DNA of 64,000 bases from an uncultured Elusimicrobiaceae bacterium (GTDB lineage Bacteria; Elusimicrobiota; Elusimicrobia; Elusimicrobiales; UBA9959): the NCBI GenBank assembly GCA_964415175.1, contig CAYPYG010000003.1, positions 65,586 to 129,585 on the forward strand. The letters are read 5' to 3'. The notes under the pieces were generated by a model, which saw only the letters and a list, made by a program, of their open reading frames with translations, had not been told where the DNA came from and did not search any database. Position numbers and translations under genes: made by a program. Numbering within the stretch: the stretch's first letter is position 1; the number at the start of each line of letters is the position of its first letter. This document shows, piece after piece, positions 8,798-43,135 of the stretch.

Positions 8798-8810
8798 CGG
8801 ATGCTTAATG

Positions 8811-8842: not shown

Positions 8843-8844
8843 GT

Positions 8845-10613: not shown

Positions 10614-10623
10614 GGCGCGAACG

Positions 10624-11865: not shown

Positions 11866-11894
11866 GGGCCGGCCGCGCGGCGGCCGGACGGAGC

Positions 11895-28038: not shown

Positions 28039-29427
28039 ATGAAAAAAAAGAGCGTGAAGCCGCAGCACCCCCGTTCGCCTTTCCTGCTGGAACTGGTGCT
28101 CTCCAACCGCTGCAACCTGGCCTGCGACTATTGTTCCTCCTCTTTCCTTCTGAAAGATAAGACCAGGAAGGTCCTTCCGTTCGGAACTCTCCGGCGCGCC
28201 GTCGACCTTTACGCGGTCTGTCTGCAGAAGAACGGCCTCGCCGGTGAGGGGCTCGTCTCCTTCACGGGCAACGAGCCGCTCCTGGATTTCCCGCTGCTGC
28301 GCCGGGTCGTCCGCTATATACGCCGCGCGTACCCCCGGATGAGGATGCGGCTGGATACGAACGGCACACTGCTGGACGCGGGGAAGGCCTCCTTCCTTTC
28401 CCGCAACGGCGTGCGTATCTTCGTCAGCCTGGACGGCTGCCGCGCGGCCCACGACAGGCACCGGACCTTTCCCGGCGGACGCGGGTCCTTCGACGCCGTC
28501 GTCGGGGCGCTCCGCGCTCTGCCGGAAGAGCTGCGCTCGGGCGGGGGACTCTGCGTCTGGTCGGTCGTCACGCCGGAGACCATCGGCCTGCTGCCGGAGT
28601 CCCTGGACCTCTTCCGCGGGCTCGGGGTCGGCACGGTGGTGCTCGGCCTCGAGACCTACGCCAGGTGGGACGCCGCGGCCCTTCGCCGGCTGAAGGCCGC
28701 TTTCCGGCTGTTCAGATCGCGGCCGCTCGAAGCGCTCGGCGGCTCCCCCCCGCCCCGCTTCCTCTTCGGCCTTTCGGGCGCCTCCGATTTCCGCGGGATG
28801 ATCGGGCAGGCCGTCTCGCTGGCGCTGGACGGCCGGTTCTATCCCTGCGATTTCGCCCTCATACCTCCGGGCGGGCGGGACCTCAGCGTGGGGGACCTGG
28901 AGAGCGGCATAGACATGCGGAAGCTGGACCGGATGATCTCGTCGCCCATGTTCCGCCGCATCGAACGCGGCTGCGAGCGCATGTCGGGCCTGCGCGCGCC
29001 GGTGGAGAGATATTACCGCGGGCTTTCCCTGGGGCTTTCCGGGCGGGAACTCTCCCGCGACCTGCGGGACACTTCCAGGGTCAACCTGCTTTTCGCGCGG
29101 GAGATGTCCGGTTATCTCGGACTGCTGGAGACCGGCGAGCGGCTGGCGACCGCTCCCGGTTTCGGCGACCTGGCCCACTCTCCCAAGTATTCCGCGGACA
29201 AGACCGCGGCCGCGTTCAGGCTGCGTCCGGGCGGCGCGCCGCTTTCCGCGCAGCGCGCCGGCCTGGACCTTTTCCTGTACGCGCCCGGCCGGAGAAAATC
29301 CCTGACCCTCGGGTTCGCGGCCGGGGACGACGCGGCCCGCGGGCCGGCCGCCGACCTCTGCGCTTATTCACTGGCCAAGGCCGGCCTGCTGGGCCTGAAA
29401 CTCGCCGTCAGCCTGGAGCCGGAGTGA
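28039..29427 (+). CDS. Radical SAM paralog P4
   Basis: LLELVLSNRCNLACDYCSS; TGNEPLLDF; SLDGCRAAHDRHRTF; GFGDLAHSPKY; FLYAPGRRKSL. Confidence 0.85.
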   Translation: MKKKSVKPQHPRSPFLLELVLSNRCNLACDYCSSSFLLKDKTRKVLPFGTLRRAVDLYAVCLQKNGLAGEGLVSFTGNEPLLDFPLLRRVVRYIRRAYPRMRMRLDTNGTLLDAGKASFLSRNGVRIFVSLDGCRAAHDRHRTFPGGRGSFDAVVGALRALPEELRSGGGLCVWSVVTPETIGLLPESLDLFRGLGVGTVVLGLETYARWDAAALRRLKAAFRLFRSRPLEALGGSPPPRFLFGLSGASDFRGMIGQAVSLALDGRFYPCDFALIPPGGRDLSVGDLESGIDMRKLDRMISSPMFRRIERGCERMSGLRAPVERYYRGLSLGLSGRELSRDLRDTSRVNLLFAREMSGYLGLLETGERLATAPGFGDLAHSPKYSADKTAAAFRLRPGGAPLSAQRAGLDLFLYAPGRRKSLTLGFAAGDDAARGPAADLCAYSLAKAGLLGLKLAVSLEPE

Positions 29428-30692
29428 GAGGGGATTTCCTGCTGGAGGTCTTCATCGGATGGCCCGGCTGCGGGAACGGGACCTCCGGGATCGCGCCGGA
29501 ACTCCTGCGCCGGGCGCTGGTCCGCGCGCGGCGCTTCGCCGGCCGGGGCGGGCGTTTCAAGATCGTTTTCACCGGCGGAGAGCCGCTCGGGGACCCCGGC
29601 CCGCTGTTCCGGCTGCTCCGGGCGGCGCGCCGCGCGGTCCCTTCGGCGGAACTGGAGGTCGTCTCCTCCGCGGAACTGCTGACCCCGCGGACCGTCCGGG
29701 ACCTGGTCTCCGCCGGCGCGGAGATAAGCGCCCGTTTCGACCTGCGCGGCGGCCGCCGCGCCCGCGCGGTCGTCCCCGCCCCTCTGGCCGCGACGATGTC
29801 CGACGGACGTCTCGCCGCGAGGGTGCACGCCGCCGCCGTTCTCGATTCGCGTTCGATAGGACGCCTGCCGGAGATCGCCCGCCTCCTCGGAGCACGCTCC
29901 GGGTTCAAGCAGCTGGAGATAGCGCTGGACGCCGGGGTAACATGGACCCCCGCCGCTCTGGACCGGCTGCGCCTGGAGCTGAAAGGCCTGAAAAGGTCCG
30001 CGGCCGCGGCGCTCGCCGCCGGCGGCCCGCCCGCCGGTTTTATTTTCAGCGGTTTCTCCGGGGCGCCCGCCGAGGAGGACCCGGGCCGGGCCCTCACGCT
30101 GTTCCCCGACGGGAGTTTCTTCCCGTCCGACCTGGCGACCCTGCCGCCGCTGCGGCGCTTCGCGGCCGGGGACGCCGCGGGGGGCATAGACGCTTCCCGG
30201 CTGCGCCGCCTGGCGGCCTTTCAGTCCGGGCTGGCCCGGAAGTACGGTGCGGGGCCCGTTTCGCCGGCCGAGAGTTACGCCCTGGGCGCCGCGCGCGGGC
30301 TTTCAGGGCGCGCGCTCGAGGGTTTCCTGGAGGGCGCCGCCCGCGTCAACCGGGTCTTCGCGGAGGAGGCCGGACCGCTGTTCTTCCTGGCCGGTATTTT
30401 CGCCCGCCTGCGCCGCGAACCCGGTTTCGGCGACCTGGTCCATCCGCCCAAATACGCCGCCCCGGTGCTCATGAGGGAGATGGCCATCGCCTGCGACGGT
30501 CCCGCGCCGGCCTCCCTGCGGGCCTGCGCCGACCTTTTCCTGCGGTCCCCCGGCGCGGCCAAGAGACTCTCGCTGGGAGGCCGGCCGGGTTCCCCGGCGG
30601 TCCCCCTCGCGGCCTACCTGCTGGCCGCCTCGCTGCTGCTCGGAAGGAAGTCCGCTCTTTCGATGATCCCTCCCGCCGGCCGTTCTCGCTAG
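29424..30692 (+). CDS. Degenerate paralog P5 lacking the CxxxCxxC radical-SAM cluster motif
   Basis: GTG start overlaps the P4 stop (GTGA 29424-29427). FLLEVFIGWPGCGNGTSG replaces TNRCNxxCxYC. It keeps TGGEPLG, GFGDLVHPPKY and FLRSPGAAKRL. The track ORF from 28665 is out-of-frame overlap with P4. Confidence 0.7.
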   Translation: MRGDFLLEVFIGWPGCGNGTSGIAPELLRRALVRARRFAGRGGRFKIVFTGGEPLGDPGPLFRLLRAARRAVPSAELEVVSSAELLTPRTVRDLVSAGAEISARFDLRGGRRARAVVPAPLAATMSDGRLAARVHAAAVLDSRSIGRLPEIARLLGARSGFKQLEIALDAGVTWTPAALDRLRLELKGLKRSAAAALAAGGPPAGFIFSGFSGAPAEEDPGRALTLFPDGSFFPSDLATLPPLRRFAAGDAAGGIDASRLRRLAAFQSGLARKYGAGPVSPAESYALGAARGLSGRALEGFLEGAARVNRVFAEEAGPLFFLAGIFARLRREPGFGDLVHPPKYAAPVLMREMAIACDGPAPASLRACADLFLRSPGAAKRLSLGGRPGSPAVPLAAYLLAASLLLGRKSALSMIPPAGRSR

Positions 30693-30697
30693 CTTTC

Positions 30698-30712
30698 TTA
30701 TTTTATTGTATC
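30698..30712 (+). promoter_or_regulatory. AT-rich promoter-like element upstream of AKR gene
   Basis: Sequence cttattttattgtatca has ATTGTA at 30705-30710, within the 102-nt gap after P5. Confidence 0.25.
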
Positions 30713-30723
30713 ATTGGCATAAG

Positions 30724-30766
30724 AGCCGCTGTGATGCATTCCGTAACCGCATTCGGCGGCTTTTTT
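30724..30766 (+). terminator. Terminator-like hairpin plus T-run (terminator or leader attenuator)
   Basis: AGCCGC (30724-30729) pairs with GCGGCT (30756-30761), with partial inner pairing (GATGC/GCATT). It is followed by TTTTTT (30761-30766). It lies downstream of the AT-rich element and 29 nt upstream of ATG 30795. Confidence 0.45.
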
Positions 30767-30794
30767 CAAGCCCCGGCGGCGGGGAGCTCCGGTC

Positions 30795-32090
30795 ATGAAA
30801 AAAAGGAAACTGGGAAATACAGGGCTCCGCGTCTCCGTGCTGGGTTACGGTTCGGGGGTGCTGAGTTCCGTTCCTCCGGGGGAGCCTTCGGCGGCGCGTC
30901 TCCTCAACCGGCTTCTCGACTCCGGCGTCAACTATATCGACACCTCGCCCGACTACGGCAGCAGCGAAGAGCTCATCGGCCGGGCCCTGTCCGGGAGGAG
31001 GAGCGAGTTCTTCCTGGCCACCAAGTGCGGCTGCCCGGACAGGGGCTGGAGCCGCGGACATGTCTGGACCGCCGCCAGACTGCTGCACAATATCGAGAAC
31101 AGTCTGCGCCGCCTGAAGACCTCCTGCGTCGACGTGTGGCAGCTCCATAATCCGCCCCCGGAACTGGTCCGGCGCGGCGGCCTGCTGGAGGTCATGGAGA
31201 AGGTGCGGCGGCAGGGGAAGGCCCGTTTCGTTTCCGTCAGCACTTTTCTGCCCGACGCGGAGGAGTACATCGGCTGGGGGGCTTTCGACGTGTTCCAGCT
31301 GCCCTACGGCGCGCTGGACCGGCGCAACGAGTCCGCGGTCGCCGCGGCCTCCTGTTCAGGGGCCGGCGTGGTGGTCCGAGGGAGCATAGCGGAGGGCGAG
31401 CCGAAAGGCGCGCTTTCGCGCGACAGGCTCTGGAAGTTCTGGGCGGCGGCCGGCCTCGACGGCCTGCGCCCGGAGGACGAGAGCCGGACGGCTTTCCTGC
31501 TGCGCTTCGCTCTTTCCAACCCGGACGTGGACACCGCCGTCCTCGGTACCCGTTCTTCCGCGCATCTGGACGAGGCCGTGCGGGCGGCCGAAGCCGGTCC
31601 TCTGCCCGCGGAACTGGTCCGGGAGGTCCGCCGCAGGCTGGACGCCGCGGGCTGCCCGTCCGCGCCTCCCCGCGGGCGCAGGAAAGCCGGCGGCGGGCCG
31701 GGCAGCGTCGAAGTCGAGGTGAAGCCGGCGGAGGCCGCCTGCCTGCCGGCGCTCGTCGAGTCCGCCGCCGCGGGCGGCGCGCGGATCAGGCTGCGCCCAG
31801 GGACCGGCCCCTGGGACAGGTCGTCCCTGGCGGCCCTAAGGCGCGGTCTGGCCGGCCTCGGCAAGACCATTATCTCGGGCGTCGCCAGGGGGCGCCGCCT
31901 GCACCTGGACGGCGCCGGCGGCCGCGCGGCTTCGGGGACGGGCCCGGCGGCGGAGGAACTTCGCCGGGGGCTGGACAGGATAGCGGAAGGAGTGGAGTCG
32001 CTGGCGGACAGAAGCAAGGCGTTCAGGGAGTACCTCGACGAAGCCGCGGGCGGCCGCGGCGTGCGGGGGCGCGGACGCGGCAAGAGGTAA
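30795..32090 (+). CDS. Aldo/keto reductase with ~140-aa C-terminal extension related to the locus-specific module
   Basis: AKR N-terminus KLGNTGLRVSVLGYG, then NYIDTSPDYG and VDVWQLHN. The extension (~31665-32090) has LRRGLAGLGKTII and KAFREYLDEA, matching LRAGLAGLGQLLL / PAFKAYLAAL of 42353-43135. Confidence 0.8.
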   Translation: MKKRKLGNTGLRVSVLGYGSGVLSSVPPGEPSAARLLNRLLDSGVNYIDTSPDYGSSEELIGRALSGRRSEFFLATKCGCPDRGWSRGHVWTAARLLHNIENSLRRLKTSCVDVWQLHNPPPELVRRGGLLEVMEKVRRQGKARFVSVSTFLPDAEEYIGWGAFDVFQLPYGALDRRNESAVAAASCSGAGVVVRGSIAEGEPKGALSRDRLWKFWAAAGLDGLRPEDESRTAFLLRFALSNPDVDTAVLGTRSSAHLDEAVRAAEAGPLPAELVREVRRRLDAAGCPSAPPRGRRKAGGGPGSVEVEVKPAEAACLPALVESAAAGGARIRLRPGTGPWDRSSLAALRRGLAGLGKTIISGVARGRRLHLDGAGGRAASGTGPAAEELRRGLDRIAEGVESLADRSKAFREYLDEAAGGRGVRGRGRGKR

Positions 32091-32099
32091 GGAGAGGCC

Positions 32100-34283
32100 A
32101 TGAAAAGCACTTATACCGAACAGGTCGGCATGACCAACGCTCTTTCGATAGAGATCTTCATCACCAACCGCTGCAGCATGGACTGTTCCTACTGCTCGTC
32201 GCGGTACATGATACACGAGAAGGACGCCAGGCGCCTGAGCTTCGAGCAGCTCAAGGTCGCCTTCGACGCGCTGGACCGCGATCCCTACATCAAAAAGCAT
32301 TTCGGCGGCAAGGTGCACGTGGACCTGACCGGCGGCGAGCCGCTGATAGAGTACGAGACCATAAAACAGATCGTGGCCTACGTGCGGGCCAACCTGAAGC
32401 TCGAATACGAGTTCGAGCTGGAGACCAACGGCACGCTGCTCACCGAGGAGCGGATAAAGTACCTCATCGACAACAAGATAGAGATACGGCTCAGCCTCGA
32501 CGGCTACAAGGCCCAGAACGACAAGCACCGCCGGTTCCGCAACGCCAGCGACGCCTCCGCCTACGAGGCCATCATCCGCAAGATGAAAATGGGCCTTATC
32601 GGGACCAGGCACATGGACCTGGTCTATGTCGGGGCCATACTGGACGCGGAGGACTTCCAGAACCTGCCCAAGGTGATGGACTATTTCAAGAACGAACTGG
32701 GCTTCAGGCGCATGGAGATAGGTCCGTCGGCCTACGAGCTCTGGGACGAGGCGGCCATCGCCCGTCTCCGCAAGGCCCTGCGCAGCATGACGCCCGAGCT
32801 GATGGCCACGCTGGAGCACCAGATGGGCATCAATAAGCGCGAGTCCGTCTTCCACGAATTCCTCTTCACCCAGTCGAAGACCATCGGCACGGCCTACGAG
32901 GACCTGGCCAAGAAGACCATAACCCTGTTCTACGACGGCTGCTGGTACATGTGCGACTTCGTGGTCAAGCCGCCGCTCGACCCGAAGTTCCGCGTCGGGG
33001 AGCTGAAGAAAGGGATAGATTTCGGCCGCATCCGGACGATAAGCCGCTACCCGATGTTCAAGGAGATCTACTCCAAGTGCGAGCACCGCTCCGGGTTCTT
33101 CTCCCCCGTAGAGGGTTATTACTGGGGAGTGGTCCATAAGTTCACGCCGAAACAGCTCGACGACATGATGTGGAACACCTCCAACATGAACAAGGTCCTG
33201 GGCGAGGAGGTCGGCTGGTACACCAAGCTGCAGAAGACCTATTACGACCTTTACATGAAGCCCGGCTTCGGCGACTTCGGCCACGACCCCAAGCATAAGG
33301 CCGGCAAGGAGATGCGCACGCTCCGCCTGTCGGTCAGCGACTCGTCCGATATCGTCAGGCTGAGGGCCGCGGTGGACTTCTTCCTCTACTCGCCCGGCGA
33401 CCGCAAGCGCCTGGTCATGGACGCCACCGACAACGGCGCGGAGACCGCGCGGATAGTCGAAGGCATGGTCCTCTACTCGCTGGTCAAGACCGGCAAGGGC
33501 TACCTGGACAAGAAGCTCCGCCTGATGCTGGAGACCGACGCGAAGGGTTTCGACGACGACAACTGGCGCTTCCTCGACGACCACGGCGTGCAGGTCGGCA
33601 TCAAGGCGGCCTCCCGCTACAGCGCCGCCACGGCCTACCGCCGCAGCTACCAGATGGACGCCGCCCTGAACACGGTCGACAGCACCTACGCCGTGCCCGG
33701 CGTCACGCGGCGCAACGCGCGGAACCTGCCGACCCTGGTGGAGGCGGCCGTGCGCAACGGCTGCCGCTGGGTGCGGCTGGAACTGTCGGGCCGCGAGGAC
33801 TGGCGCGACGCCGACATCGCGGGGCTGCGCTCCGGGATGGAGAAGCTCGGCCAGGCGCTCGTGGCCGGCATCGCCAAAGGAGAGCCGGTTTACCTGCTTA
33901 ACTTCGAGGAGGCCGAAACCCCCGCCGGCTGCCCCGTCTTCGCCGATTCCTTCCTGGCCGACGGCGGCGGCGACTACAGGCTTGTCCCGCCGCAATGGCG
34001 CTATGACGGCCGCGGCGTGAAGGTCGGCGATTTCGACCGCGGCGTCGGGGAGCTCGCCGGCTGCGCCTGGTCCGCCGCTTCGGGGACCTGCGCGGCCTGC
34101 GCGCGCCGGCCGGCCGCCGCCGGTTACGACGCCTGGGCGGAGCGGGAATTCTCCGCGGGGCTGCGCAGGGCGCTGGAAGGCATCAGATACCTGGCCGCCA
34201 AAAAGAAGCCCTTCGCCGCCTACCTGGAGGCCCTGCGCTCCGACAGGGAGAGGGTCTCGGGGCTGCTCATAAACAAGAAATGA
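32100..34283 (+). CDS. Radical SAM paralog P6 fused to C-terminal Cys4 module
   Basis: SIEIFITNRCSMDCSYCSS; TGGEPLIEY; SLDGYKAQNDKHRRF; GFGDFGHDPKH; FLYSPGDRKRL. Then a ~220-aa extension carries AGCPVF...YRLVPPQWRYDGRGVKVG...GCAWSAASGTCAAC...FAAYLEAL. AAGGAGAGG RBS. Confidence 0.85.
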   Translation: MKSTYTEQVGMTNALSIEIFITNRCSMDCSYCSSRYMIHEKDARRLSFEQLKVAFDALDRDPYIKKHFGGKVHVDLTGGEPLIEYETIKQIVAYVRANLKLEYEFELETNGTLLTEERIKYLIDNKIEIRLSLDGYKAQNDKHRRFRNASDASAYEAIIRKMKMGLIGTRHMDLVYVGAILDAEDFQNLPKVMDYFKNELGFRRMEIGPSAYELWDEAAIARLRKALRSMTPELMATLEHQMGINKRESVFHEFLFTQSKTIGTAYEDLAKKTITLFYDGCWYMCDFVVKPPLDPKFRVGELKKGIDFGRIRTISRYPMFKEIYSKCEHRSGFFSPVEGYYWGVVHKFTPKQLDDMMWNTSNMNKVLGEEVGWYTKLQKTYYDLYMKPGFGDFGHDPKHKAGKEMRTLRLSVSDSSDIVRLRAAVDFFLYSPGDRKRLVMDATDNGAETARIVEGMVLYSLVKTGKGYLDKKLRLMLETDAKGFDDDNWRFLDDHGVQVGIKAASRYSAATAYRRSYQMDAALNTVDSTYAVPGVTRRNARNLPTLVEAAVRNGCRWVRLELSGREDWRDADIAGLRSGMEKLGQALVAGIAKGEPVYLLNFEEAETPAGCPVFADSFLADGGGDYRLVPPQWRYDGRGVKVGDFDRGVGELAGCAWSAASGTCAACARRPAAAGYDAWAEREFSAGLRRALEGIRYLAAKKKPFAAYLEALRSDRERVSGLLINKK

Positions 34284-35845: not shown

Positions 35846-37251
35846 AGCGCCCCGCCGGGCCGGAGCCGTTCCTGGTCGAAATATTCCTGACCGGCCGCTG
35901 CAACATGGACTGTACCTACTGCGCGGCGCGTTACATGATCCATGCGAAGGAGCCCGGCCTGCTGACTTTCGAACAGCTGAAGCGGGCGGCGGAAGTGATA
36001 GCCGCCGACCGCGTGGTGAGGCGGAAGCACGGGGGGAGGGTCAGGATCTCCTTCACCGGCGGCGAGCCGATGCTCGAGTTCGCTCTTATCGAGAAGGCGG
36101 TGCGCCATATGCGGGCGCGGTACCCGGACTGGGAATTCGACGTCTCCACCAACGGCACGCTCCTGACACCGGAGAGGCTCGAGTTCTTCCTGCGCAACGA
36201 CGTGGGGCTCAGCGTCAGCCTGGACGGTTTCGGCCGCGTCAACGATTCCCACCGCCGCTTCGTCTCGGGAAAGGCTTCCGCTTTCGGCGTGGTCGAGCGG
36301 AGCCTGCGCGCCGGCCTGGACGATCCGCGCTACCGCGACCTGTTCCACGTCGCCGCGACGCTGACCTCCCGCACCATCGGGGACCTGCCCGGCGTCGTGA
36401 GTTTCTTCAGGGAACGGACGGGGCTCAGGGAGCTCGAGATAGCGCTGGAGGCCTACGAGGACTGGGGACCGCCGGCGCGCGCCGGGCTGCGCCGCGTCCT
36501 GCGCGGGCTGGGGAGGAGATGCGCGGCGGCCCTGGAGCGCGGCGAAGGGGCCGAGGAGGCTTTCAGGGAATTCATCTTCACGCAGGCGAAGGGGGCCGAG
36601 GGACGGGAACTGACCCAAAAAGCGCTGACGCTCTTTTACGACGGCCGTTTCTACCCGTGCGACTTCGTGGTCAAGCCGCCGCTGGAGGAGGAATACTGCG
36701 TGGGGGACCTGGAGCGGGGACTGGACCACGGCCGCCTGGAAGCCCTGGAGCGGCTGCCTCTTTTCAGGGAGATAGAGAGGAAATGCGAGTTCAAGTCCGG
36801 CCTGCTCTCCCCCGTCGAGCGCTACTACTGGGGGATGGTGCACGGCTATTCGAGGGCCGGACTGGACGCCGTCCTTCTCAATACTTCCGAGGTCAACAGA
36901 ATCTTCCACGAGGAACTGGGACCTTACCTGCGCCTCCAGCGCGCCTACGCCAGGCTGTTCATGTCCCCCGGCTTCGGCGATTTCGTCCACGCCCCTAAAT
37001 TCGCCGGGAGCTCCGCCGCCGGCCTGCTCCGGCTGGCCGTTCCGGCCGGAGCCCCGCCCGCGCGGCTGCGGGCCGCGGCCGACTGGCAGCTCCACTCTCC
37101 CGGCGCCGGCGCGCTCAGGCTGGCCGCGGCGGACGGCCGTCCGGCGCGGGCCGCCGCCGGGGACATCGCTTTCTACGCCATGGTCAAATCGCGCATGCTG
37201 GGGAAGAGGTCGCGCGTGGAGCTGGAAGCGGACGGCGGGGGGCGGGCATGA
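35833..37251 (+). CDS. Radical SAM paralog P8
   Basis: Start at ATG 35833 (MGGVKRPAGPEPFLVEIFLTGRCNMDCTYCAA), a 13-nt overlap with P7. TGGEPMLEF; SLDGFGRVNDSHRRF; GFGDFVHAPKF; VKSRMLGKRSRV. Confidence 0.85.
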   Translation: MGGVKRPAGPEPFLVEIFLTGRCNMDCTYCAARYMIHAKEPGLLTFEQLKRAAEVIAADRVVRRKHGGRVRISFTGGEPMLEFALIEKAVRHMRARYPDWEFDVSTNGTLLTPERLEFFLRNDVGLSVSLDGFGRVNDSHRRFVSGKASAFGVVERSLRAGLDDPRYRDLFHVAATLTSRTIGDLPGVVSFFRERTGLRELEIALEAYEDWGPPARAGLRRVLRGLGRRCAAALERGEGAEEAFREFIFTQAKGAEGRELTQKALTLFYDGRFYPCDFVVKPPLEEEYCVGDLERGLDHGRLEALERLPLFREIERKCEFKSGLLSPVERYYWGMVHGYSRAGLDAVLLNTSEVNRIFHEELGPYLRLQRAYARLFMSPGFGDFVHAPKFAGSSAAGLLRLAVPAGAPPARLRAAADWQLHSPGAGALRLAAADGRPARAAAGDIAFYAMVKSRMLGKRSRVELEADGGGRA

Positions 37252-38648
37252 TAGTCAACCCTCTGCGCGCCGACCACCGCCCGCGGGAGGAGTTCCTGCT
37301 CGAGGTCTTCCTTACCAACCGCTGCAACCTGGACTGCTCGTACTGCTCCTCGCGGCGGATGATAGACGAGCCGGCGCGGCGCGCCCTTTCTTTCGGGCAG
37401 GTGCGGCGCGCGGTGGACGTCTTCGCCGCCTACGGGCGCCGCCGCGGCGCGCGCCAGGAGCGCACCGTCTTTTTCACCGGCGGCGAGCCTTTCCTGGAAT
37501 ACGACGTTCTCCGGCGCTCCGTGGAGTACATCGACTCCCTGCCGGGCGGGTTCCGCGTCAGGATAGCCACCAACGCGACGATGCTGGACCCGGCGAGGGT
37601 GAAGTTCCTGCTGGACCATGACGTCCGGATATTCGTCAGTCTCGACGGCTGCCGGAAAGCGCACGACCGCCACCGGGTCTCCCGCGGCGGCCGCGGCTCC
37701 TTCACGGAGATAGACCGGGCGTTGCGCCGGCTGCCGCGCTCCGTGCGCGGCGGGCCCAATTTCTGCGTTTCCGCCACCTTCACCTCCGAGACCGCGAAGT
37801 GGCTTCCCGAGAGCCTGGATTACTTCCGGGACCTGGGCATAAGAGTGGTCGAGATCTGCCCCGAGGCCTACGAGGTCTGGCGGCCGGCGGACATAGCCCG
37901 CGCGGCCGCGGTGCTGGCCCGCGTGGCGAGGGAGCGCCTCTACCGCCGCTTCGAAGGGGAGGCCGGCGGGCCGCAGTTCGTGTTCTCCAATAGTTCGGCC
38001 CCCGACAACTCGAAATGGGCCGTCGCCGACTACAGGGATACCCTGCTGCACAGCGTCAGTTTCATGTACGACGGCTTTTTCTATCCCTGCGAGGCGGTCT
38101 TCGGCGGCGGGACGGAGGCCGCCTACCGCATCGGCGACGCGGAGCGCGGCATAGACCGGCGGCGGGCGGAGAAAGTGTACGCGGCCGCGCTCGCGCGCAT
38201 ACGCCGCTGCGCCCCCTCGGTCGGCACGCTGCTGACGGCAGGGCGCTATTATTACGCCGTGAACGCCGGGCTCGACCCGGCGGAATATTTCGACAACGCC
38301 CGCCGGGTTAACGAGGCCTTCGACTCGGCGTTGGGAGGCTGCCTGCGCGCCCAGCTGCTGCATGACCGCGTCACGGCGCTGCCCGATTTCGGCGATTTCG
38401 CTCACGCTCCCCGCCTCGCCTCCCGGCGGGAGCTCCCCGCCCTAAGGCTGGAAGCTGCGCCCGGCTCCGACCCGGCCCGCCTGCGGGCCTGCGTCGACCA
38501 TTTCCTGTACTCTCCCGGCGCGCGAAAGGCGCTGGCCATCCGCCGCGCCGCCGGCGCGGAGGAAGTATCCTCGGCCCTGGCGCTGTACGCCCTTTCCAAG
38601 GCGGGCCGCCTGCGCAAAAGACTTTCCGTCAGGACGGAGGCGGCGTGA
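37248..38648 (+). CDS. Radical SAM paralog P9
   Basis: FLLEVFLTNRCNLDCSYCSS; TGGEPFLEY; SLDGCRKAHDRHRVS; DFGDFAHAPRL; FLYSPGARKAL. ATGA overlap at 37248-37251. Confidence 0.85.
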   Translation: MIVNPLRADHRPREEFLLEVFLTNRCNLDCSYCSSRRMIDEPARRALSFGQVRRAVDVFAAYGRRRGARQERTVFFTGGEPFLEYDVLRRSVEYIDSLPGGFRVRIATNATMLDPARVKFLLDHDVRIFVSLDGCRKAHDRHRVSRGGRGSFTEIDRALRRLPRSVRGGPNFCVSATFTSETAKWLPESLDYFRDLGIRVVEICPEAYEVWRPADIARAAAVLARVARERLYRRFEGEAGGPQFVFSNSSAPDNSKWAVADYRDTLLHSVSFMYDGFFYPCEAVFGGGTEAAYRIGDAERGIDRRRAEKVYAAALARIRRCAPSVGTLLTAGRYYYAVNAGLDPAEYFDNARRVNEAFDSALGGCLRAQLLHDRVTALPDFGDFAHAPRLASRRELPALRLEAAPGSDPARLRACVDHFLYSPGARKALAIRRAAGAEEVSSALALYALSKAGRLRKRLSVRTEAA

Positions 38649-40942
38649 AGGATGCCGCCGTCAGACCGCCGGAGCGGGAGGTCGAGGTCCACGGGCCTTC
38701 GCTGACCCCGGCGAAGGCCGCCCCGCTGCTGCGTACGGGCGCCGAGGTCTGGGCCGTTTTCGAAGGCGCGGCCGGCGCGCGCGCTACGGCGGCCGCGCTC
38801 GCCGCCCTTCCCCCGGACCTGCTCCGGCGGGTATGCGTGTCCGGCGTTTTCGGCCCCGCCGACGCCGGCTCGCTGCTGCGCTCCGCCCGGCTCTTCCGCA
38901 AGACGGACATAAAAGAACTGGTCTTCGAACTGGACGCGCGCGCCGCGTGGAGGGGAAAGGGGCTGGCGCGGCTGCGCGCGGAGCTGAAGCGGATAGCCCT
39001 GGACTTCGCCCGCGAACTGCGGTCGGGTTCGTTCCCGTGGCCGCAGCCGAGCCGCCTCTACGGCATCGACCTGGCCGGAGGTTCCTTCGCCCCGCCCGGC
39101 GCAGCCGCCGCGGTAAGGAAGGAGATCGGGCCTTTCGCCGCCATAGAGAGGAAGCTCCGCCGCCTGGCCGCCGGGGACGCGGCCGGGGCCCTGGAATTCT
39201 TCCAGCCCCTCACGGCCCGCGGCTTCCGCGGCCGTATCGGGCGCAAGGCGGAGACTCTCAGGCGGCTGGCCGCGTCCGGCAGGGCCGTGCCGCCGTCCTA
39301 CGTGCTTTCGGCGGGAACGCTGCGGCGCCTGTCGCCGGCGCTCGGCGCGGACCGGCGGGGGCCGTCCCCGCGCGGCGCCGGCCTCCGGTTCCTGGCCGAA
39401 CTGCGCGGGCTTTTCCCGGCGGGCCGCCGCTTCATCGTCAGGAGTTCCTCCGCCGAAGAGGACGGGCCGGGCGCTTCCTTCGCCGGGGTCTTCCGCTCGG
39501 AAGTGGTCGCTTCGCCGGGCGCCGCTCCCGCCGCGATACGGCGCTGCCTGGTCTCCGGGCGGGACGCGGGAGCGGCCGCCTACAGGCGTCTCGCCGGCCG
39601 CGGCCGGCGGCCCGCCGGAGGCATGGCGCTGCTGTTCCAGCCTTTCGTAGAGACCGGGCTCGGGGGCGTCGCCGTCTTCGACGGGCAGGGCCGGGCCGTC
39701 ATGGAACTTTCCCGCGGCGGCAACGACGGCATAACGGGCGGCCGTTCCGCCGACTGGCGTTATACTCTCGACGCGCGCGCCCGCCGCCTGGACTGCCCGC
39801 CGCGCTCCCCGCTGTCCCGTTCCGCGGCCGCGCGGCTGCTCTCGGCGCTGGCCTCCGCGAAGAGCGCTCTGTTCCCGTCGGGCGCCGCCTCGTTCGAATT
39901 CCTGGCCGGGGAAGGAGAACCCCTTTTCCTGCAGGCGCGCCCCCTGCCGCGCGCGCCCGAAGAGCCGCGCGCGGACATGCCGGCCGTCTACGCGCGCATA
40001 GCGGCGGCCATGGCCGGCCTCGGCCTCGGGCCGCGCGGCTGGAGCCTGGCCGAGACGGCGGACGTGGCGGCCTTCAATTTCCTCGGCCTCGCGCGGCCGG
40101 CGGGAGAACGCCTGGAACATTTCCGCGTCAGGATAAGCCGCGCGGCCAGGGAGAAGATCTCCCCGCGCGGCTGGGTCAGCGTCAAGTACGACGACGACGA
40201 CGACACTCTTTTTCCCTCCGGGCTCCCGCCGCTCCGCCGCGCCGCGCTGGAACGCCTGGCCGAAGAGGGGATATTCGTCATTTTCGTGCTGCCGAAAGAA
40301 GGCGAGACGGTCCTGCGGAGGACGCTCTCTTTCCCCGCGCCGGGCGGCCGGCTGCGCGTCCCGTTCTCCTATTCCCCCGAAGGGCTGGAGAAGGAGGAGG
40401 AACGCGACCTGCTCCGGCGCGGCCCGGCGGAGGCGGCCGCCTGGCTGAGGCGCCTGGCCCGCGAACGGGAGATCTGGCTGGGCGTGCGCCGCGTCGTCCG
40501 GGCCGGAAAGACCGGGGCCTACGGCCGGGCGCTGGCCCGCTTCCTCCCGGGGGAACTGGCGCTCATAGCGCGCAAGGAGCGGCTGGCGCGCCGCGCGGCC
40601 GCGCGCGCTCCCGGGGACGGCGCCGCGGTAAAAGGGCTGCCTTTCCGCCCGTCCGACGCGGTAGTCTCCGGCGTGGCCGTGACGGCCGCCCGGGCCGCCG
40701 CCTGGAAAGGCGGACCCTTCGTCTATTTCGGCCACGACCTGGAGCCCTGTTTCCTGCCGCTGATGGGCCGCATAAAGGCGGTCGTCGTCTCGCGGGGGGC
40801 CTTCGGTTCCCACGCGGCGCAGATCTGCTCGGAACTCGGCGTCCCGCTGATACTCGAAACGTCCAACCTGGGCCTGGTCAGGGACGGCGACCGGGTCGCG
40901 CTGGACCTGCGCACCGGGGAAGTGAGGAGGAAGCCGGAATGA
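38645..40942 (+). CDS. PEP-utilising-enzyme-like phosphotransferase (ATP-grasp PPDK_N-type domain + C-terminal swivel-His domain, no TIM-barrel domain)
   Basis: GTG start with GTGA overlap at 38645-38648. The central region has RIGRKAETLRRLAASGRAVPPSYVL and FIVRSSSAEEDGPGASFAGVF (PpsA/PPDK nucleotide-binding domain). The C-terminal end has VVVSRGAFGSHAAQICSELGVPLIL (phospho-His mobile domain). The N-terminal ~190 aa are unassigned. Confidence 0.75.
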   Translation: MKDAAVRPPEREVEVHGPSLTPAKAAPLLRTGAEVWAVFEGAAGARATAAALAALPPDLLRRVCVSGVFGPADAGSLLRSARLFRKTDIKELVFELDARAAWRGKGLARLRAELKRIALDFARELRSGSFPWPQPSRLYGIDLAGGSFAPPGAAAAVRKEIGPFAAIERKLRRLAAGDAAGALEFFQPLTARGFRGRIGRKAETLRRLAASGRAVPPSYVLSAGTLRRLSPALGADRRGPSPRGAGLRFLAELRGLFPAGRRFIVRSSSAEEDGPGASFAGVFRSEVVASPGAAPAAIRRCLVSGRDAGAAAYRRLAGRGRRPAGGMALLFQPFVETGLGGVAVFDGQGRAVMELSRGGNDGITGGRSADWRYTLDARARRLDCPPRSPLSRSAAARLLSALASAKSALFPSGAASFEFLAGEGEPLFLQARPLPRAPEEPRADMPAVYARIAAAMAGLGLGPRGWSLAETADVAAFNFLGLARPAGERLEHFRVRISRAAREKISPRGWVSVKYDDDDDTLFPSGLPPLRRAALERLAEEGIFVIFVLPKEGETVLRRTLSFPAPGGRLRVPFSYSPEGLEKEEERDLLRRGPAEAAAWLRRLAREREIWLGVRRVVRAGKTGAYGRALARFLPGELALIARKERLARRAAARAPGDGAAVKGLPFRPSDAVVSGVAVTAARAAAWKGGPFVYFGHDLEPCFLPLMGRIKAVVVSRGAFGSHAAQICSELGVPLILETSNLGLVRDGDRVALDLRTGEVRRKPE

Positions 40943-42315
40943 AGTCCGTCCTCCCGCCGCCCACGCTGGAACTTTATTTCACCAACCGGTGCAACCTGGA
41001 CTGCGCGTATTGTTCCAGCCGCGCCGTCAAAGCGGGCGGGACCAGGACGATGAGCCTGGAGGAGATAGTCCGCGGAACGGACCTGGCCCTGGACTATGTC
41101 CGCCGGGCCGGCGGCGGCCCGCTTACCGTGGGACTTACCGGCGGAGAGCCGCTCACGGAATTCCCGCTGCTGCGGCGCGCGGTGGAGACGCTGCGCCGCA
41201 GGCGCGGCCTGAACCTGCACGTCTGCACCAACGGGACCCTGCTGGACCGGGAGAAGGCCGGCTTCCTGCTCGACAGCGGCGTGGAACTGGACATAAGTCT
41301 CGACGGGCCGGCGGCGCTGCACGACCGCAACAGGCGGGCGGGGCCGGGCGGGCCGCGCTCCGTCTTCGCCGCGGTACTGCGGAACCTGGAGCGTCTGCCG
41401 CCCTCCTGGACGGGGCGGATGCGCGCCGTCTCCACCTTCGATTCCCGCACCATCGGCGGCGCCGCCGGCGCGCTGGAATTCCTGCGGGACCTGGGTTTCC
41501 GGCAGGCCGGCTTCGGCATCGACATATACGAGAACTGGTCCCGGCGGGACCTCGTACGGCTGGCCGGGACGCTCGCCCTGTTCCGGCGCCGGTATACCGG
41601 CGCCTGGCTCTCGGCGCTGCGGTCCCGGCGGCCCGACCCGCCCCCCTTCCCGTTCGAGGACGGCCTGGTCGGAAGCCTGCGGCCGGAGGACTCCCGCGAG
41701 CTCTCGCTTTCGGTGGACGGCTATTTCTTCCCCTCGGACACGGTCCGCCGCGGTCCCGGCCGGCCGGGCTGGACGGTGGGCGACCTGCGGACGGGTATCG
41801 ACGCCTCCCTGCTGTCGAAAGCCCGGGCCAGGGTCTCGCGCGCCGCGTCCGGTCTCGGTTTCTCCAACTGGATAATACCTCCCGCCGACCGCTACTGGCA
41901 CGCGGTGTTCCGCGGCGCCGACCCCGTCCCTTCGCTGGCCAACGCGGCGGAGGTCTCGGCCGTGTTCGGACGGGAACTGGGCGGCCTGCTGGAGGCCCGG
42001 CGGGCGCTGGACGCGCTGGCGGTCGAGCCCGGTTTCGGGGACCTCGTCCACCGTCCCAGGCACGCCGCCCCGCGCGGCGTGGGCTCTTTCGCCTCCGCCG
42101 CGGGACGGCTGGCGGCGGCCAGGAGGGGAGTGGACTATTTCCTGCATTCCCCGGCGCGCGGCGGCCGGCTGACCCTGGAAGGCGCGGACGGGGAACGCTC
42201 CCGGCGCCTGGCGTTCTACGCGCTGCTGAAGGCGGCGCGGCTGGGGGGCTCGCTGAAGATCGCGCTCCGCCGGCAGGGCCCCGGCGGCCCCCGTTATGGT
42301 AAAATTGGAAGATAA
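40939..42315 (+). CDS. Radical SAM paralog P10
   Basis: TLELYFTNRCNLDCAYCSS; TGGEPLTEF; SLDGPAALHDRNRRA; GFGDLVHRPRH; FLHSPARGGRL; LKAARLGGSLKI. ATGA overlap at 40939-40942. The track ORF 38833-42315 is a composite. Confidence 0.85.
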   Translation: MKSVLPPPTLELYFTNRCNLDCAYCSSRAVKAGGTRTMSLEEIVRGTDLALDYVRRAGGGPLTVGLTGGEPLTEFPLLRRAVETLRRRRGLNLHVCTNGTLLDREKAGFLLDSGVELDISLDGPAALHDRNRRAGPGGPRSVFAAVLRNLERLPPSWTGRMRAVSTFDSRTIGGAAGALEFLRDLGFRQAGFGIDIYENWSRRDLVRLAGTLALFRRRYTGAWLSALRSRRPDPPPFPFEDGLVGSLRPEDSRELSLSVDGYFFPSDTVRRGPGRPGWTVGDLRTGIDASLLSKARARVSRAASGLGFSNWIIPPADRYWHAVFRGADPVPSLANAAEVSAVFGRELGGLLEARRALDALAVEPGFGDLVHRPRHAAPRGVGSFASAAGRLAAARRGVDYFLHSPARGGRLTLEGADGERSRRLAFYALLKAARLGGSLKIALRRQGPGGPRYGKIGR

Positions 42316-42352
42316 ATACTCGGAGGCGGGGCGACCGCCACGGAGGCGGACA

Positions 42353-43135
42353 ATGAAAGGTTTCGATCAGGACGAGATAAGGTTCATCAAGGAACACGGT
42401 ATTTTCCTCGGCTTGCGCGACACGGGCGGCGGGAAGCCTTCGCCCGACCTGGCCGGCTATGACAGGCTCTACGGCATAATCGGGCTCGACCGCCGCAACG
42501 CTTCGAGGGCCGCGGCCCTGGCCGGGACCGCGCTGAAGAACGGGTACACGCGGCTGCGTTTCGAACTCTGCGGCAAGGGCCGCTGGACCGCCAGGGAGCT
42601 CGACGGCCTGCGCGCCGGCCTGGCCGGGCTGGGCCAGCTGCTGCTCAAAAGCGTCATCGCGAAAAAACCTTTCATCCTCCTGAACCTGGAGGACCTGCTG
42701 GACCCCGAAGAGGGCTGCCGCATCTTCTCCGATATGCTGATGGCCGACGCTAAAGGGAACTACGTGCTGGTGCCCCCGCAGTGGCGCTACGACGGCCGCG
42801 GGGTCAAGGTCGGCCACGCCGACACCGGCATAAAGGAGTACCAGGGCTGCGTCCACGACGCCAAGTCGGCCCGCTGCGTCGAATGCGAGAAGAAGAATTT
42901 CGCGCTGCTGGCCAAGATCTACGACGGCAACGCCACCGCCGGTTTCCGCGCCGGCATAGGGAAGATCTTCGAGAGCGTCCGCTACCTGGCCGGCGCCAAG
43001 CCCGCCTTCAAGGCCTACCTGGCCGCCCTCCGGGAGGACAGGGACCTGGAGTCGGGCCTGTTCATAAACGAGGCCGGCAAGAAGGCGGAGAAGACGAAGA
43101 GGGCGAAAACGGCGGCCAGGGCGAAGACGCGTTAA
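42353..43135 (+). CDS. Free-standing Cys4 module protein (cluster-motif-less relative of the paralog C-terminal half)
   Basis: Start at ATG 42353 (MKGFDQDEIRF), preceded by GGAGGCGG. EGCRIF...YVLVPPQWRYDGRGVKVG...GCVHDAKSARCVEC...PAFKAYLAAL is collinear with the C-terminal extension of P6. It has a Lys-rich tail. Confidence 0.7.
   Translation: MKGFDQDEIRFIKEHGIFLGLRDTGGGKPSPDLAGYDRLYGIIGLDRRNASRAAALAGTALKNGYTRLRFELCGKGRWTARELDGLRAGLAGLGQLLLKSVIAKKPFILLNLEDLLDPEEGCRIFSDMLMADAKGNYVLVPPQWRYDGRGVKVGHADTGIKEYQGCVHDAKSARCVECEKKNFALLAKIYDGNATAGFRAGIGKIFESVRYLAGAKPAFKAYLAALREDRDLESGLFINEAGKKAEKTKRAKTAARAKTR

What the first reader, a model, noticed from the sequence alone, without database searches (positions are those of the whole stretch)
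38645..40942. PpsA/rifampicin-phosphotransferase-like enzyme translationally coupled inside the rSAM chain
The protein has a PPDK_N-type ATP-grasp region (FIVRSSSAEEDGPGASFAGVF) and a C-terminal swivel phospho-His domain (GSHAAQICSELGVPLIL). It lacks a PEP/pyruvate TIM-barrel domain. That is the domain set of small-molecule phosphotransferases such as rifampicin phosphotransferase, not of PEP synthase. It overlaps P9 (GTGA) and P10 (ATGA), so it is made together with them. It could phosphorylate or activate the pathway intermediate.
Basis: partly seen in the sequence, partly recalled or inferred. Interest (0 to 1): 0.6.

Follow-up and report, generated by a model that had tools for sequence, protein, structure and literature searches.

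The report
Orphan swivel-histidine dikinase in radical-SAM operon
This gene encodes an ATP-driven phosphate-transfer enzyme built like the rifampicin-inactivating kinase but with an unrecognisable substrate-binding domain and a fused remnant of a radical-SAM enzyme, and it sits inside a giant Elusimicrobia gene cluster whose product is still unknown.

Summary
ORF 38645-40942 (+, 765 aa) is real. It carries a PPDK_N ATP-grasp domain and a C-terminal PEP-utilizers swivel domain, both above Pfam cut-offs. It has no PEP/pyruvate barrel. It overlaps both flanking radical-SAM genes by 4 nt (GTGA, ATGA).

The residues for ATP-to-His transfer are invariant in 13 homologues of 29-83% identity: K201, R266, S285, E418, Q430, R432 and H723. 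The best solved-structure match is Listeria rifampin phosphotransferase (Foldseek E 3e-15).

It is not a member of the RPH, PigC/RedH or PpsA families. The acceptor domain (aa ~436-660) is an orphan by sequence, profile and fold.

In related contigs this paralogue is a separate 446-aa gene directly upstream. The remnant is under purifying selection.

The family is tiny: about 9 clusters at 50% identity among 1.84 billion representatives. All 12 genome hits are Elusimicrobiota.

The surrounding locus is the published "Group VI nitrogenase-like + radical SAM" cluster, whose function is still unknown in 2026. The held text of those papers does not mention this gene.

Most likely it is a dikinase (ATP to AMP + Pi) that phosphorylates or activates a pathway intermediate. 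The acceptor is unknown. I rate it a new variant of a known kind, of moderate interest.

The parts
38645..40942 (+). Whole gene: 765-aa four-part protein (rSAM relic, ATP-grasp, orphan acceptor domain, phospho-His swivel)
38636..38640 (+). GGAGG Shine-Dalgarno, 4 nt before the GTG start. The start overlaps the upstream stop (GTGA, 38645-38648).
   Evidence: read directly from sequence
38645..39199 (+). N-terminal ~185 aa: relic of the middle of a radical-SAM partial barrel. It lacks CxxxCxxC. It is present only in the three closest homologues.
   Evidence: phmmer gives E 5.7e-19 to aa 91-239 of the 446-aa cluster-less rSAM paralogue directly upstream of the short-form gene in L003, and E 6e-10 to 1e-4 to window rSAMs. 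pLDDT is 84-94. dN/dS is 0.31-0.39.
39200..39949 (+). ATP-grasp nucleotide-binding domain (aa ~186-435), with invariant K201, R266-S267-S268, E272-D273, S285, E418, Q430 and R432
   Evidence: Pfam PPDK_N. PDB profile hits to PpsA 9dae/8a8e and RPH 5fbs, with R117<->R266 and T136<->S285. Foldseek hits to RPH and HpeI. Invariance.
39245..39247 (+). Codon of K201 (the GxK motif, equivalent to Lys22 of RPH and PPDK)
   Evidence: Aligned to GGK of PpsA. Invariant. The role of Lys22 is from PMC4844700.
39950..40624 (+). Orphan acceptor (second-substrate) domain plus long linker helices (aa ~436-660). Family-invariant residues: D444, W466, E470, R484, E491-H492, W510, P524, F547, E585.
   Evidence: No Pfam family in any member. 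No PDB sequence hit. hhalign probability 0.07% against 60 RPH/PpsA-like proteins. The AF2 domain model (pLDDT 83) has a best Foldseek-PDB E of 0.07.
40625..40939 (+). C-terminal phospho-histidine swivel domain (aa ~661-765)
   Evidence: Pfam PEP-utilizers at 38.8 bits. Aligned to the swivel domains of PpsA and RPH. dN/dS is 0.06-0.11, the most constrained part.
40811..40813 (+). Codon of H723, the predicted phospho-carrier histidine (motif SRGAFGSHAAQ)
   Evidence: Aligned to His of TSHAA in PpsA and to His825 of RPH-Lm. Invariant in 13 sequences.
37248..38648 (+). Upstream radical-SAM gene (CNLDCSYC at aa 26). Its stop overlaps the target's start.
40939..42315 (+). Downstream radical-SAM gene (CNLDCAYC at aa 18). 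Its ATG overlaps the target's stop. SD GGAGG at 40926-40930.
42296..43135 (+). Conserved 279-aa protein of unknown family that always follows the downstream rSAM in syntenic contigs. By eye it resembles a truncated rSAM/SPASM paralogue.
   Evidence: No Pfam or NCBIfam hit. An orthologue at 67% identity holds the same position in L011, and 245-260-aa genes hold it in L003 and L004. Sequence.

Best explanation
The gene encodes a catalytically competent swivelling-histidine dikinase of the RPH-type architecture.

Proposed mechanism:
1. The ATP-grasp domain (aa ~186-435) binds ATP.
2. His723 on the C-terminal swivel domain attacks the beta-phosphate. AMP and Pi are released. This step is inferred by homology.
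3. The phospho-His domain swings to the family-specific acceptor domain (aa ~436-660) and passes the phosphate to an oxygen nucleophile on a second substrate.

I infer that the acceptor is an intermediate of the pathway encoded by the co-translated radical-SAM chain. Phosphorylation would either tag that intermediate or activate it as a leaving group.

The N-terminal 185 aa are a remnant of a cluster-less radical-SAM paralogue. In sister lineages this paralogue is a separate gene immediately upstream. I propose that the remnant is a non-catalytic adaptor or substrate-recognition module that links the kinase to the same substrate or to the rSAM enzymes.

Shown: domain identities, conserved catalytic residues, operon structure, origin of the fusion, selection. 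Inferred: the AMP + Pi stoichiometry, the identity and chemical class of the acceptor, and the adaptor role.

Confidence by step: about 0.8 that it is a working swivel-His dikinase, and about 0.55 that its acceptor belongs to the rSAM-chain pathway.
For: Domains:
- Pfam PPDK_N and PEP-utilizers score above cut-off, and no barrel is found.
- PDB profile hits cover only the ATP-grasp and swivel domains of PpsA (9dae 7.5e-31, 8a8e 1.4e-29) and RPH-Lm (4e-19).
- The full-length AF2 model has pLDDT 81.7. Its best PDB fold matches are RPH-Lm 5hv1 (E 3.3e-15), then PPDK and HpeI.

Catalytic residues:
- The residues equivalent to those that matter in RPH-Lm (Lys22, Arg117, Thr136, His825; PMC4844700) are K201, R266, S285 and H723. 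All are invariant across 13 sequences of 29-83% identity.
- dN/dS is 0.06-0.11 in the swivel domain and 0.24-0.34 in the ATP-grasp and acceptor domains.

Operon:
- The order rSAM-rSAM-kinase-rSAM-unknown-rSAM recurs in L002-L005 and L011 at 53-82% identity.
- Terminator-like sites in 31.5-45 kb are not enriched (8 found, 8.4 expected).

Fusion:
- aa 12-145 align to aa 91-239 of the L003 446-aa pseudo-rSAM (E 5.7e-19), which has no CxxxCxxC.
- There is no in-frame start codon between codons 66 and 214. K201 can therefore only be made as part of the fusion.
- The relic has dN/dS 0.31-0.39 and pLDDT 84-94.

Precedent: RPH, HpeHI, phenylphosphate synthase and HapC/PigC all use this two-site swivel mechanism on non-pyruvate acceptors (PMC4844700, PMC12167813, PMC13534948).
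Against: - No biochemical data exist and the acceptor is unknown.
- The acceptor domain has no homologue, so no substrate class can be read from it.
- Family members at 34-41% identity, which share the same invariant acceptor-domain residues, lie in other contexts. One group is beside a PUFA-synthase-like PKS with envelope-type proteins (L001, L014, L016). Another follows a YgeW / carbamate-kinase / ThrC-like gene run (L017-L020). A third lies among B12-rSAM, amine-oxidase and U32 genes (L006, L007, L013). The acceptor may therefore not be specific to the rSAM chain.
- The Pfam ATP-grasp match covers only a quarter of the model. The domain is unusually short (~250 aa).
- The swivel motif departs from the usual GG-x-T-S-H: it reads G-A-F-G-S-H, and the regulatory Thr is replaced by Gly.
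- The adaptor role of the relic is pure inference.
Confidence: 0.55

Rival explanations
1. It is a PigC/RedH/HapC-like ATP-dependent ligase. The phospho-His activates a carbonyl or hydroxyl oxygen only transiently. A second nucleophile then displaces phosphate and forms a C-C, C-N or C-O bond. No stable phospho-product accumulates.
For: NCBIfam gives weak hits to RedH (1.1e-7, aa 198-378) and PigC (5.4e-6), comparable to the RPH hit (3e-5). HapC/PigC share the ATP-grasp plus C-terminal swivel architecture (PMC13534948). The family-invariant E491-H492 and R484 in the acceptor domain could serve acid/base chemistry.
Against: [quoted passage not shown] The acceptor domain is unrelated to anything. 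No pyrrole or aldehyde pathway genes are nearby.
Confidence: 0.15
2. The acceptor is a peptide or protein, not a small molecule. Candidates are a ribosomal precursor processed by the rSAM/SPASM-like enzymes, or a partner enzyme phosphorylated as in the Enzyme I to HPr relay.
For: The flanking rSAMs score best, though far below cut-offs, against peptide maturases: PapB, CcpM, SCIFF, QhpD, HxsB. HxsC-like and HxsD-like genes occur in the window and in L006. One family member (P0022) carries a C-terminal TPR extension, and TPR proteins sit in the cluster. Fusion to a pseudo-rSAM suggests protein-protein contacts. Enzyme I N-terminal domain appears among the weak fold hits.
Against: I found no small precursor-like ORF with coding composition in the gaps of the cluster; this check was not exhaustive. 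All characterised enzymes with this domain order act on small molecules. The published reading of the cluster is tetrapyrrole or cofactor chemistry.
Confidence: 0.15
3. The kinase serves a lineage-wide function of Elusimicrobia that is unrelated to the rSAM chain, for example lipid or envelope metabolism, or scavenging of a phenolic or enolic compound. Its position in this operon is a lineage-specific accident of gene order.
For: Homologues with the same invariant acceptor residues lie beside PUFA-synthase-like PKS and envelope genes (L001, L014, L016), after ygeW / carbamate kinase / thrC-like genes (L017-L020), or alone (L008, L012).
Against: Within the rSAM-chain clade the position is fixed. 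The gene is overlapped on both sides over 53-82% identity. It has fused to an rSAM paralogue. The ygeW / carbamate-kinase / thrC-like run and a U32 gene are themselves inside this window's super-cluster, so the other contexts share components with this one.
Confidence: 0.12
4. It is a genuine PEP synthase or PPDK whose PEP/pyruvate barrel is encoded separately, or it is a decaying inactive relic.
For: Public fragments of it are annotated 'PEP/pyruvate-binding domain-containing protein' and 'PEP-utilizing enzyme'. The best NCBIfam names are 'phosphoenolpyruvate synthase'.
Against: No PEP-utilizers_C is found in any of 13 members or in any window protein scanned. The swivel domain is C-terminal rather than central. 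NCBIfam scores are 53 bits against cut-offs of 600-1,060. Catalytic residues are invariant and dN/dS is well below 1, which argues against decay.
Confidence: 0.03

Closest known systems
Rifampin phosphotransferase (RPH-Lm; PDB 5hv1, 5fbs; NCBIfam NF041857)
   Same: The three-part logic is the same: N-terminal ATP-grasp, central second-substrate domain, C-terminal phospho-His swivel. RPH-Lm is the best fold match (E 3.3e-15). Equivalents of Lys22, Arg117, Thr136 and His825 are conserved.
   Different: The acceptor domain is ~220 aa against 428 aa for the RIF-binding domain, and has no detectable sequence or fold similarity. There is an extra N-terminal rSAM-relic domain. NF041857 scores 22.6 bits against a cut-off of 999. 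The context is a biosynthetic operon, not resistance.
Two-component small-molecule dikinases HpeHI, CreHI and phenylphosphate synthase PpsAB
   Same: The ATP-grasp fold matches HpeI (9goj: Foldseek 6.6e-8, profile 1.4e-15). The swivel-His mechanism yields AMP (PMC12167813).
   Different: Those enzymes are split into two polypeptides, have an RPH-like acceptor domain, and phosphorylate phenols in catabolism. This protein is a single chain with an orphan acceptor domain.
Prodiginine condensing enzymes PigC, RedH and HapC
   Same: The domain order is the same and there is weak ATP-grasp similarity. They are biosynthetic rather than central-metabolic enzymes.
   Different: Scores are 25-30 bits against cut-offs of 1,300-1,350. 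There is no similarity in the acceptor region and no prodiginine genes are present.
PEP synthase (PpsA) and pyruvate phosphate dikinase (PPDK)
   Same: The ATP-grasp and swivel domains are homologous. PpsA gives the best sequence hits (9dae 7.5e-31).
   Different: There is no PEP/pyruvate TIM barrel. The swivel domain is C-terminal, not central. The regulatory Thr before the His is replaced by Gly.
Group VI nitrogenase-like (NFL) plus radical-SAM clusters of groundwater Elusimicrobia (Meheust et al. 2020; Chem Rev 2026)
   Same: The window is this kind of locus. It has three NifH/NifD/NifK-like sets and about 18 rSAM genes in an Elusimicrobiales MAG.
   Different: The held text of those papers does not mention a dikinase. 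They propose tetrapyrrole reduction, and nothing here tests that.

Membership tests
PEP synthase / PPDK (true pyruvate dikinases) | C-terminal PEP/pyruvate-binding TIM barrel (Pfam PEP-utilizers_C, PF02896) | tested here: not met
   Absent at E<=1 in the target and in all 13 family members. The protein ends with the swivel domain, and the next gene is an rSAM.
PEP synthase / PPDK (true pyruvate dikinases) | Phospho-His swivel domain located centrally, between the ATP-grasp and the barrel | tested here: not met
   The swivel domain is at aa 661-765 of 765.
PEP synthase / PPDK (true pyruvate dikinases) | Whole-protein score above the NCBIfam equivalog cut-offs | tested here: not met
   The best score is 53.1 bits against a cut-off of 883 (NF004881). 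TIGR01418 scores 29.5 against 739.75.
Swivelling-His dikinase superfamily (ATP-grasp plus phospho-His mobile domain) | PPDK_N-type ATP-grasp with the phosphate-binding Lys and Arg and the Mg/ATP-site Glu/Gln/Arg | tested here: met
   Pfam scores 30.2 bits against 27. K201, R266, S285, E418, Q430 and R432 are invariant and aligned to PpsA/RPH residues.
Swivelling-His dikinase superfamily (ATP-grasp plus phospho-His mobile domain) | Mobile domain with the conserved catalytic His in a G-rich loop (..G-x-x-x-S/T-H-A-A..) | tested here: met
   Pfam scores 38.8 bits against 23.1. H723 aligns to the His of TSHAA in PpsA and to His825 of RPH-Lm, and is invariant.
Swivelling-His dikinase superfamily (ATP-grasp plus phospho-His mobile domain) | ATP converted to AMP + Pi with beta-phosphate transfer through phospho-His | not testable with these tools
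   This needs an enzyme assay.
Rifampin phosphotransferase family (NF041857) | Domain order ATP-grasp, acceptor domain, C-terminal swivel | tested here: met
Rifampin phosphotransferase family (NF041857) | Homologous RIF-binding domain (~430 aa, with the Arg666-Glu667 catalytic pair) | tested here: not met
   The central domain is ~220 aa. The RPH alignment covers only the ATP-grasp and swivel domains. hhalign gives probability 0.07% against RPH/PpsA-like proteins. The domain model has no RPH hit in Foldseek-PDB.
Rifampin phosphotransferase family (NF041857) | Score above the equivalog cut-off (999 bits) | tested here: not met
   22.6 bits
PigC/RedH prodiginine ligases (NF052631, NF052632) | Score above the equivalog cut-offs (1,300-1,350 bits) and an homologous acceptor region | tested here: not met
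   24.6 and 30.2 bits, with the ATP-grasp region only matched
Radical SAM superfamily (for the N-terminal 185 aa) | CxxxCxxC [4Fe-4S] motif and a SAM-binding GGE motif | tested here: not met
   There is no CxxxCxxC in the protein. The relic corresponds to aa 91-239 of its parent, downstream of where those motifs lie. It is homologous to rSAM barrels but cannot be a functional member.

The most novel reading that the evidence does not exclude
The enzyme founds a new class of dikinase. An orphan acceptor domain works together with a domesticated, cluster-less radical-SAM barrel that acts as a substrate-recognition adaptor. The enzyme phosphorylates a hydroxyl or enol that is installed or exposed by the radical-SAM, U32 or nitrogenase-like enzymes. 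The substrate would be an unprecedented product: a modified tetrapyrrole-like cofactor, a polycyclic or polyunsaturated lipid, or a peptide. The phosphate would act as a leaving group for a further radical or reductive step. This would be the first link between swivelling-His dikinase chemistry and a radical-SAM / Group VI NFL pathway. It would also provide a chemically traceable (+80 Da, 32P-labelled) handle on the product of that cluster.
Probability: 0.2. Interest if true: 0.8.

Novelty: new variant of a known kind. Interest (0 to 1): 0.5.

Why it matters
The Group VI nitrogenase-like / radical-SAM clusters of groundwater Elusimicrobia were flagged in 2020. A 2026 review still lists them as of unknown function. 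A dikinase embedded in and co-translated with the rSAM chain predicts that some intermediate carries a phosphorylatable oxygen. That gives an experimental handle through 32P or mass-shift tracking and an H723A block.

The family also extends the small-molecule dikinase group (RPH, HpeHI, PigC) with a third, unrelated kind of acceptor domain. It also gives a clear example of a degenerate radical-SAM paralogue kept under selection as a fused non-catalytic module.

Tried and rejected
- **Second copy in the window.** I looked for a second copy or pseudogene downstream of the ThrC-like gene, where the family sits in L017-L020. tblastn found none. That position holds another rSAM-like ORF.
- **Acceptor domain similarity.** I looked for any similarity by Pfam on 13 members, a PDB profile, hhalign against 60 RPH/PpsA-like proteins, and Foldseek-PDB on a separate AF2 model. 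All were negative.
- **Word-indexed searches.** A search with the acceptor-domain profile returned only one fragment of the same family. A search with the whole-family profile returned only the close clade. Neither was informative.
- **Split PEP-binding barrel.** I tried tblastn with the tails of PpsA-type relatives. None of the collected relatives had the required architecture, so this test could not be run.
- **Precursor-peptide ORF.** I looked in the gaps of the cluster by composition and found none convincing.
- **ORF 29459-31150.** It turned out to be an out-of-frame artefact. The real gene there is a cluster-less rSAM paralogue in the frame of 28665-30692.
- **Promoter and terminator scan.** It showed nothing beyond chance.
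- **Literature.** Searches found no paper linking this kind of kinase to radical-SAM or Group VI NFL clusters.

Full report
**1. Observation**

The ORF at 38645-40942 (+) exists as described. It has a GTG start and a TGA stop and encodes 765 aa.

The GTG overlaps the TGA of the upstream gene (GTGA, 38645-38648). The ATG of the downstream gene overlaps the ORF's own TGA (ATGA, 40939-42). Each start is preceded by GGAGG, at 38636-38640 and at 40926-40930.

In a 70% GC window many long ORFs are spurious, but this one is coding:
- GC3 is 0.84.
- Homologues exist at 29-100% identity.
- dN/dS against two orthologues is 0.06-0.39 in every part.

Pfam finds PPDK_N (aa 262-343, 30.2 bits, cut-off 27) and the PEP-utilizers mobile domain (aa 696-758, 38.8 bits, cut-off 23.1). 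Nothing else appears at E<=1, so there is no PEP-utilizers_C barrel. Both neighbours (37248-38648 and 40939-42315) are radical-SAM proteins with CxxxCxxC.

**2. Anatomy**

The protein has four parts.

*(a) aa 1-185: a fused radical-SAM remnant.* This part is absent from most homologues, which are 558-579 aa.
- By phmmer it is homologous to the radical-SAM proteins of the window (E 6e-10 to 1e-4). Its strongest match (E 5.7e-19) is to aa 91-239 of a 446-aa gene that lies directly upstream of, and overlaps by 4 nt, the short-form kinase in contig L003.
- That 446-aa protein has no CxxxCxxC motif.
- The window lineage has four rSAM genes before the kinase, where L003 and L011 have five.
- So the N-terminal part is the middle of a cluster-less rSAM paralogue that was truncated at both ends and fused in frame.
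- There is no in-frame start codon between codons 66 and 214. The essential K201 can therefore only be made as part of the fusion.
- The relic folds confidently in AlphaFold (pLDDT 84-94). Its dN/dS of 0.31-0.39 is similar to that of the catalytic domains.

*(b) aa ~186-435: a compact ATP-grasp domain.*

*(c) aa ~436-660: an alpha/beta domain followed by two long helices.*

*(d) aa ~661-765: the swivel domain.*

**3. Catalytic competence**

A profile of 13 family members hits only the ATP-grasp and swivel domains of solved PEP synthases (9dae 7.5e-31, 8a8e 1.4e-29), of Listeria rifampin phosphotransferase (4e-19) and of HpeI (1.4e-15).

In those alignments RPH-Lm Arg117, Thr136 and His825 fall on R266, S285 and H723. 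The GGK lysine of PpsA (Lys22 in RPH and PPDK) falls on K201. The E...LQxRP motif falls on E418, Q430 and R432. In RPH-Lm, Lys22, Arg117, Thr136 and His825 are the residues shown by mutagenesis to matter (PMC4844700). All of these positions are invariant across 13 sequences of 29-83% identity.

The swivel domain is the most constrained part, with dN/dS of 0.06-0.11.

**4. Fold**

The full-length AF2 model has pLDDT 81.7 and pTM 0.64. Its best PDB matches are RPH-Lm (5hv1 E 3.3e-15; 5hv3, 5hv2, 5fbs), then PPDK and HpeI.

So the nearest sequence neighbours share the RPH-type order rather than the PpsA order.

**5. The acceptor domain is an orphan**

- No Pfam family is found in any of the 13 members.
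- No PDB sequence hit is found with a domain profile (best E 0.6).
- hhalign gives probability 0.07% against an alignment of 60 RPH/PpsA-like proteins.
- A separate AF2 model of the domain (pLDDT 83.3) has no significant Foldseek-PDB match (best E 0.07, probability 0.14).

The domain carries family-invariant residues: D444, W466, E470, R484, E491-H492, W510, P524, F547 and E585. These are candidates for the second active site, by analogy with the Arg666-Glu667 pair of RPH. This is inference.

**6. Rarity and distribution**

- Eight hits were found among 5.8 billion clustered proteins.
- In an exhaustive HMM search of 1.84 billion representatives, only about nine clusters at 50% identity match across the acceptor domain. 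Some 16,000 others match only the ATP-grasp and swivel domains.
- All 12 loci found in GTDB species genomes are Elusimicrobiota MAGs. That scan used a family-specific peptide pattern, so it could only find close signatures.
- Public fragments of the same protein are named 'PEP-utilizing enzyme' or 'PEP/pyruvate-binding domain-containing protein' from Elusimicrobiales.

**7. Context**

The window is a super-cluster containing:
- three NifH-NifD-like fusion proteins, each followed by a NifK-like protein (859-4669, 17215-20959, 21023-24945);
- about 18 radical-SAM genes, plus cluster-less paralogues;
- an aldo-keto reductase, a U32-family protein and TPR proteins;
- a ygeW / gamma-PGA-hydrolase-like / carbamate-kinase-like / ThrC-like run.

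This matches the 'Group VI nitrogenase paralogue plus radical SAM' loci described in groundwater Elusimicrobia and proposed to reduce a tetrapyrrole (bioRxiv 10.1101/765248). A 2026 review still lists them under 'unknown cofactor synthesis' (PMC13474568). The held text and supplements do not mention a dikinase.

The local order rSAM-rSAM-kinase-rSAM-unknown(245-279 aa)-rSAM, with 4-nt overlaps, recurs in contigs at 53-82% identity (L002-L005, L011).

More distant family members (34-41% identity) sit elsewhere:
- divergent from a PUFA-synthase-like PKS and overlapped with envelope-type unknowns (L001, L014, L016);
- as the last gene after ygeW / carbamate-kinase / ThrC-like genes (L017-L020);
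- among B12-rSAM, rSAM/SPASM, amine-oxidase, two U32 and HxsD-like genes (L006, L007, L013).

Several of these components (the ygeW run, U32, an HxsC-like rSAM) also occur in the present window. The contexts therefore overlap, but they do not point to one substrate.

**8. Mechanism proposed**

ATP binds in the ATP-grasp domain. His723 takes the beta-phosphate, with AMP + Pi as products, as in RPH, HpeHI and phenylphosphate synthase. The swivel domain then delivers the phosphate to an oxygen on a substrate held by the orphan domain.

The gene is co-translated with rSAM enzymes and has captured a piece of a cluster-less rSAM paralogue. The most economical reading is that the acceptor is an intermediate of that pathway, and that the relic helps to recognise it or to dock onto the rSAM enzymes.

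Whether the phosphate stays or serves as a leaving group (as in PigC) cannot be decided here. Neither can whether the acceptor is a small molecule or a peptide. The flanking rSAMs resemble peptide maturases most closely, but at scores far below the family cut-offs.

**9. Comparison and verdict**

The protein works like RPH and HpeHI. It is a member of the swivelling-His dikinase superfamily, because both defining domains and their catalytic residues are met.

It is not a member of the RPH, PigC/RedH or PpsA/PPDK families. It scores 22-53 bits against cut-offs of 600-1,350, has a different acceptor domain and lacks a barrel.

The architectural interpretation is supported. The N-terminal relic was missed, and the functional part remains inference.

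I rate it a new variant of a known kind. Interest is moderate (0.5). The enzyme type is familiar. What raises the interest is the orphan acceptor domain, the domesticated rSAM fragment, and the position inside an unsolved and unusual cluster, which make it a useful experimental handle.

Noticed in passing
window 859-3378, 17215-19683, 21023-23644 (each followed by a NifK-like gene at 3356-4669, 19661-20959, 23644-24945): There are three paralogous single ORFs in which a NifH-like domain (Fer4_NifH, E 1e-56 to 1e-65) is fused in frame to a NifD-like Oxidored_nitro domain. The held text of the Group VI NFL papers speaks of separate nifH and nifD genes and does not mention a fusion.
   Followed up: partly
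window ~5552-6499 (-) and 4725-5549 (-): A Peptidase_U32 family protein (Pfam 3e-12) lies next to an unannotated 274-aa partner. Two U32 genes also lie near the kinase homologue in L006 and L007. U32 pairs such as UbiU/UbiV are O2-independent hydroxylases (my recollection), which could create a phosphorylatable OH.
   Followed up: partly
window 7530-11865; L017-L020: The window has a run of YgeW knotted carbamoyltransferase (688 bits, above cut-off), a gamma-PGA-hydrolase-like protein, a carbamate-kinase-like protein and a ThrC-like PLP enzyme. In four other Elusimicrobia genomes the same run is followed directly by a member of the kinase family. In this window an rSAM-like ORF (~11.9-12.97 kb) takes that place.
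   Followed up: partly
window ~29.43-30.69 kb (frame of ORF 28665-30692) and 42296-43135: There are further cluster-less or truncated radical-SAM paralogues. The first keeps a GGEP motif but has no CxxxCxxC. The mechanically listed ORF 29459-31150 over the same DNA is an out-of-frame artefact. The cluster seems to generate and retain degenerate rSAM copies.
   Followed up: partly
window 13072-14106: This gene encodes a 344-aa Cys-rich protein with an N-terminal hydrophobic segment, a Lys/Glu-rich tail and no family hit. A weak homologue (28% identity, E 3e-7) lies between HxsC-like and HxsB-like rSAM genes in L006. It is a possible protein substrate or partner of the rSAM enzymes.
   Followed up: no
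L001, L014, L016 (about 0-9.8 kb of each locus): A subfamily of the kinase (41% identity to the target) is always divergently adjacent to a PUFA-synthase-like multidomain PKS (KS-AT-ACP-KR, FabA, enoyl reductase). It overlaps by 4 nt a run of unknown envelope-type genes (GNA1162-like lipoprotein, a 1,347-aa protein).
   Followed up: partly
L008 833-3502 (P0022): One family member carries a ~300-aa C-terminal TPR extension after the swivel domain. This hints at a protein partner.
   Followed up: no
window 10001-12000 and 32001-34000: These two stretches have lower GC (0.63-0.64) and strongly positive AT skew (+0.16 to +0.18), where most of the rest of the window is negative. They coincide with the carbamate-kinase/ThrC-like genes and the 727-aa rSAM at 32100-34283, which may have a different origin.
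   Followed up: no
proteins P0029, P0031, P0041 and others: Among remote relatives there are giant proteins of 1,300-2,650 aa with 3-7 matched stretches. These are tandem arrays of ATP-grasp and swivel modules.
   Followed up: no
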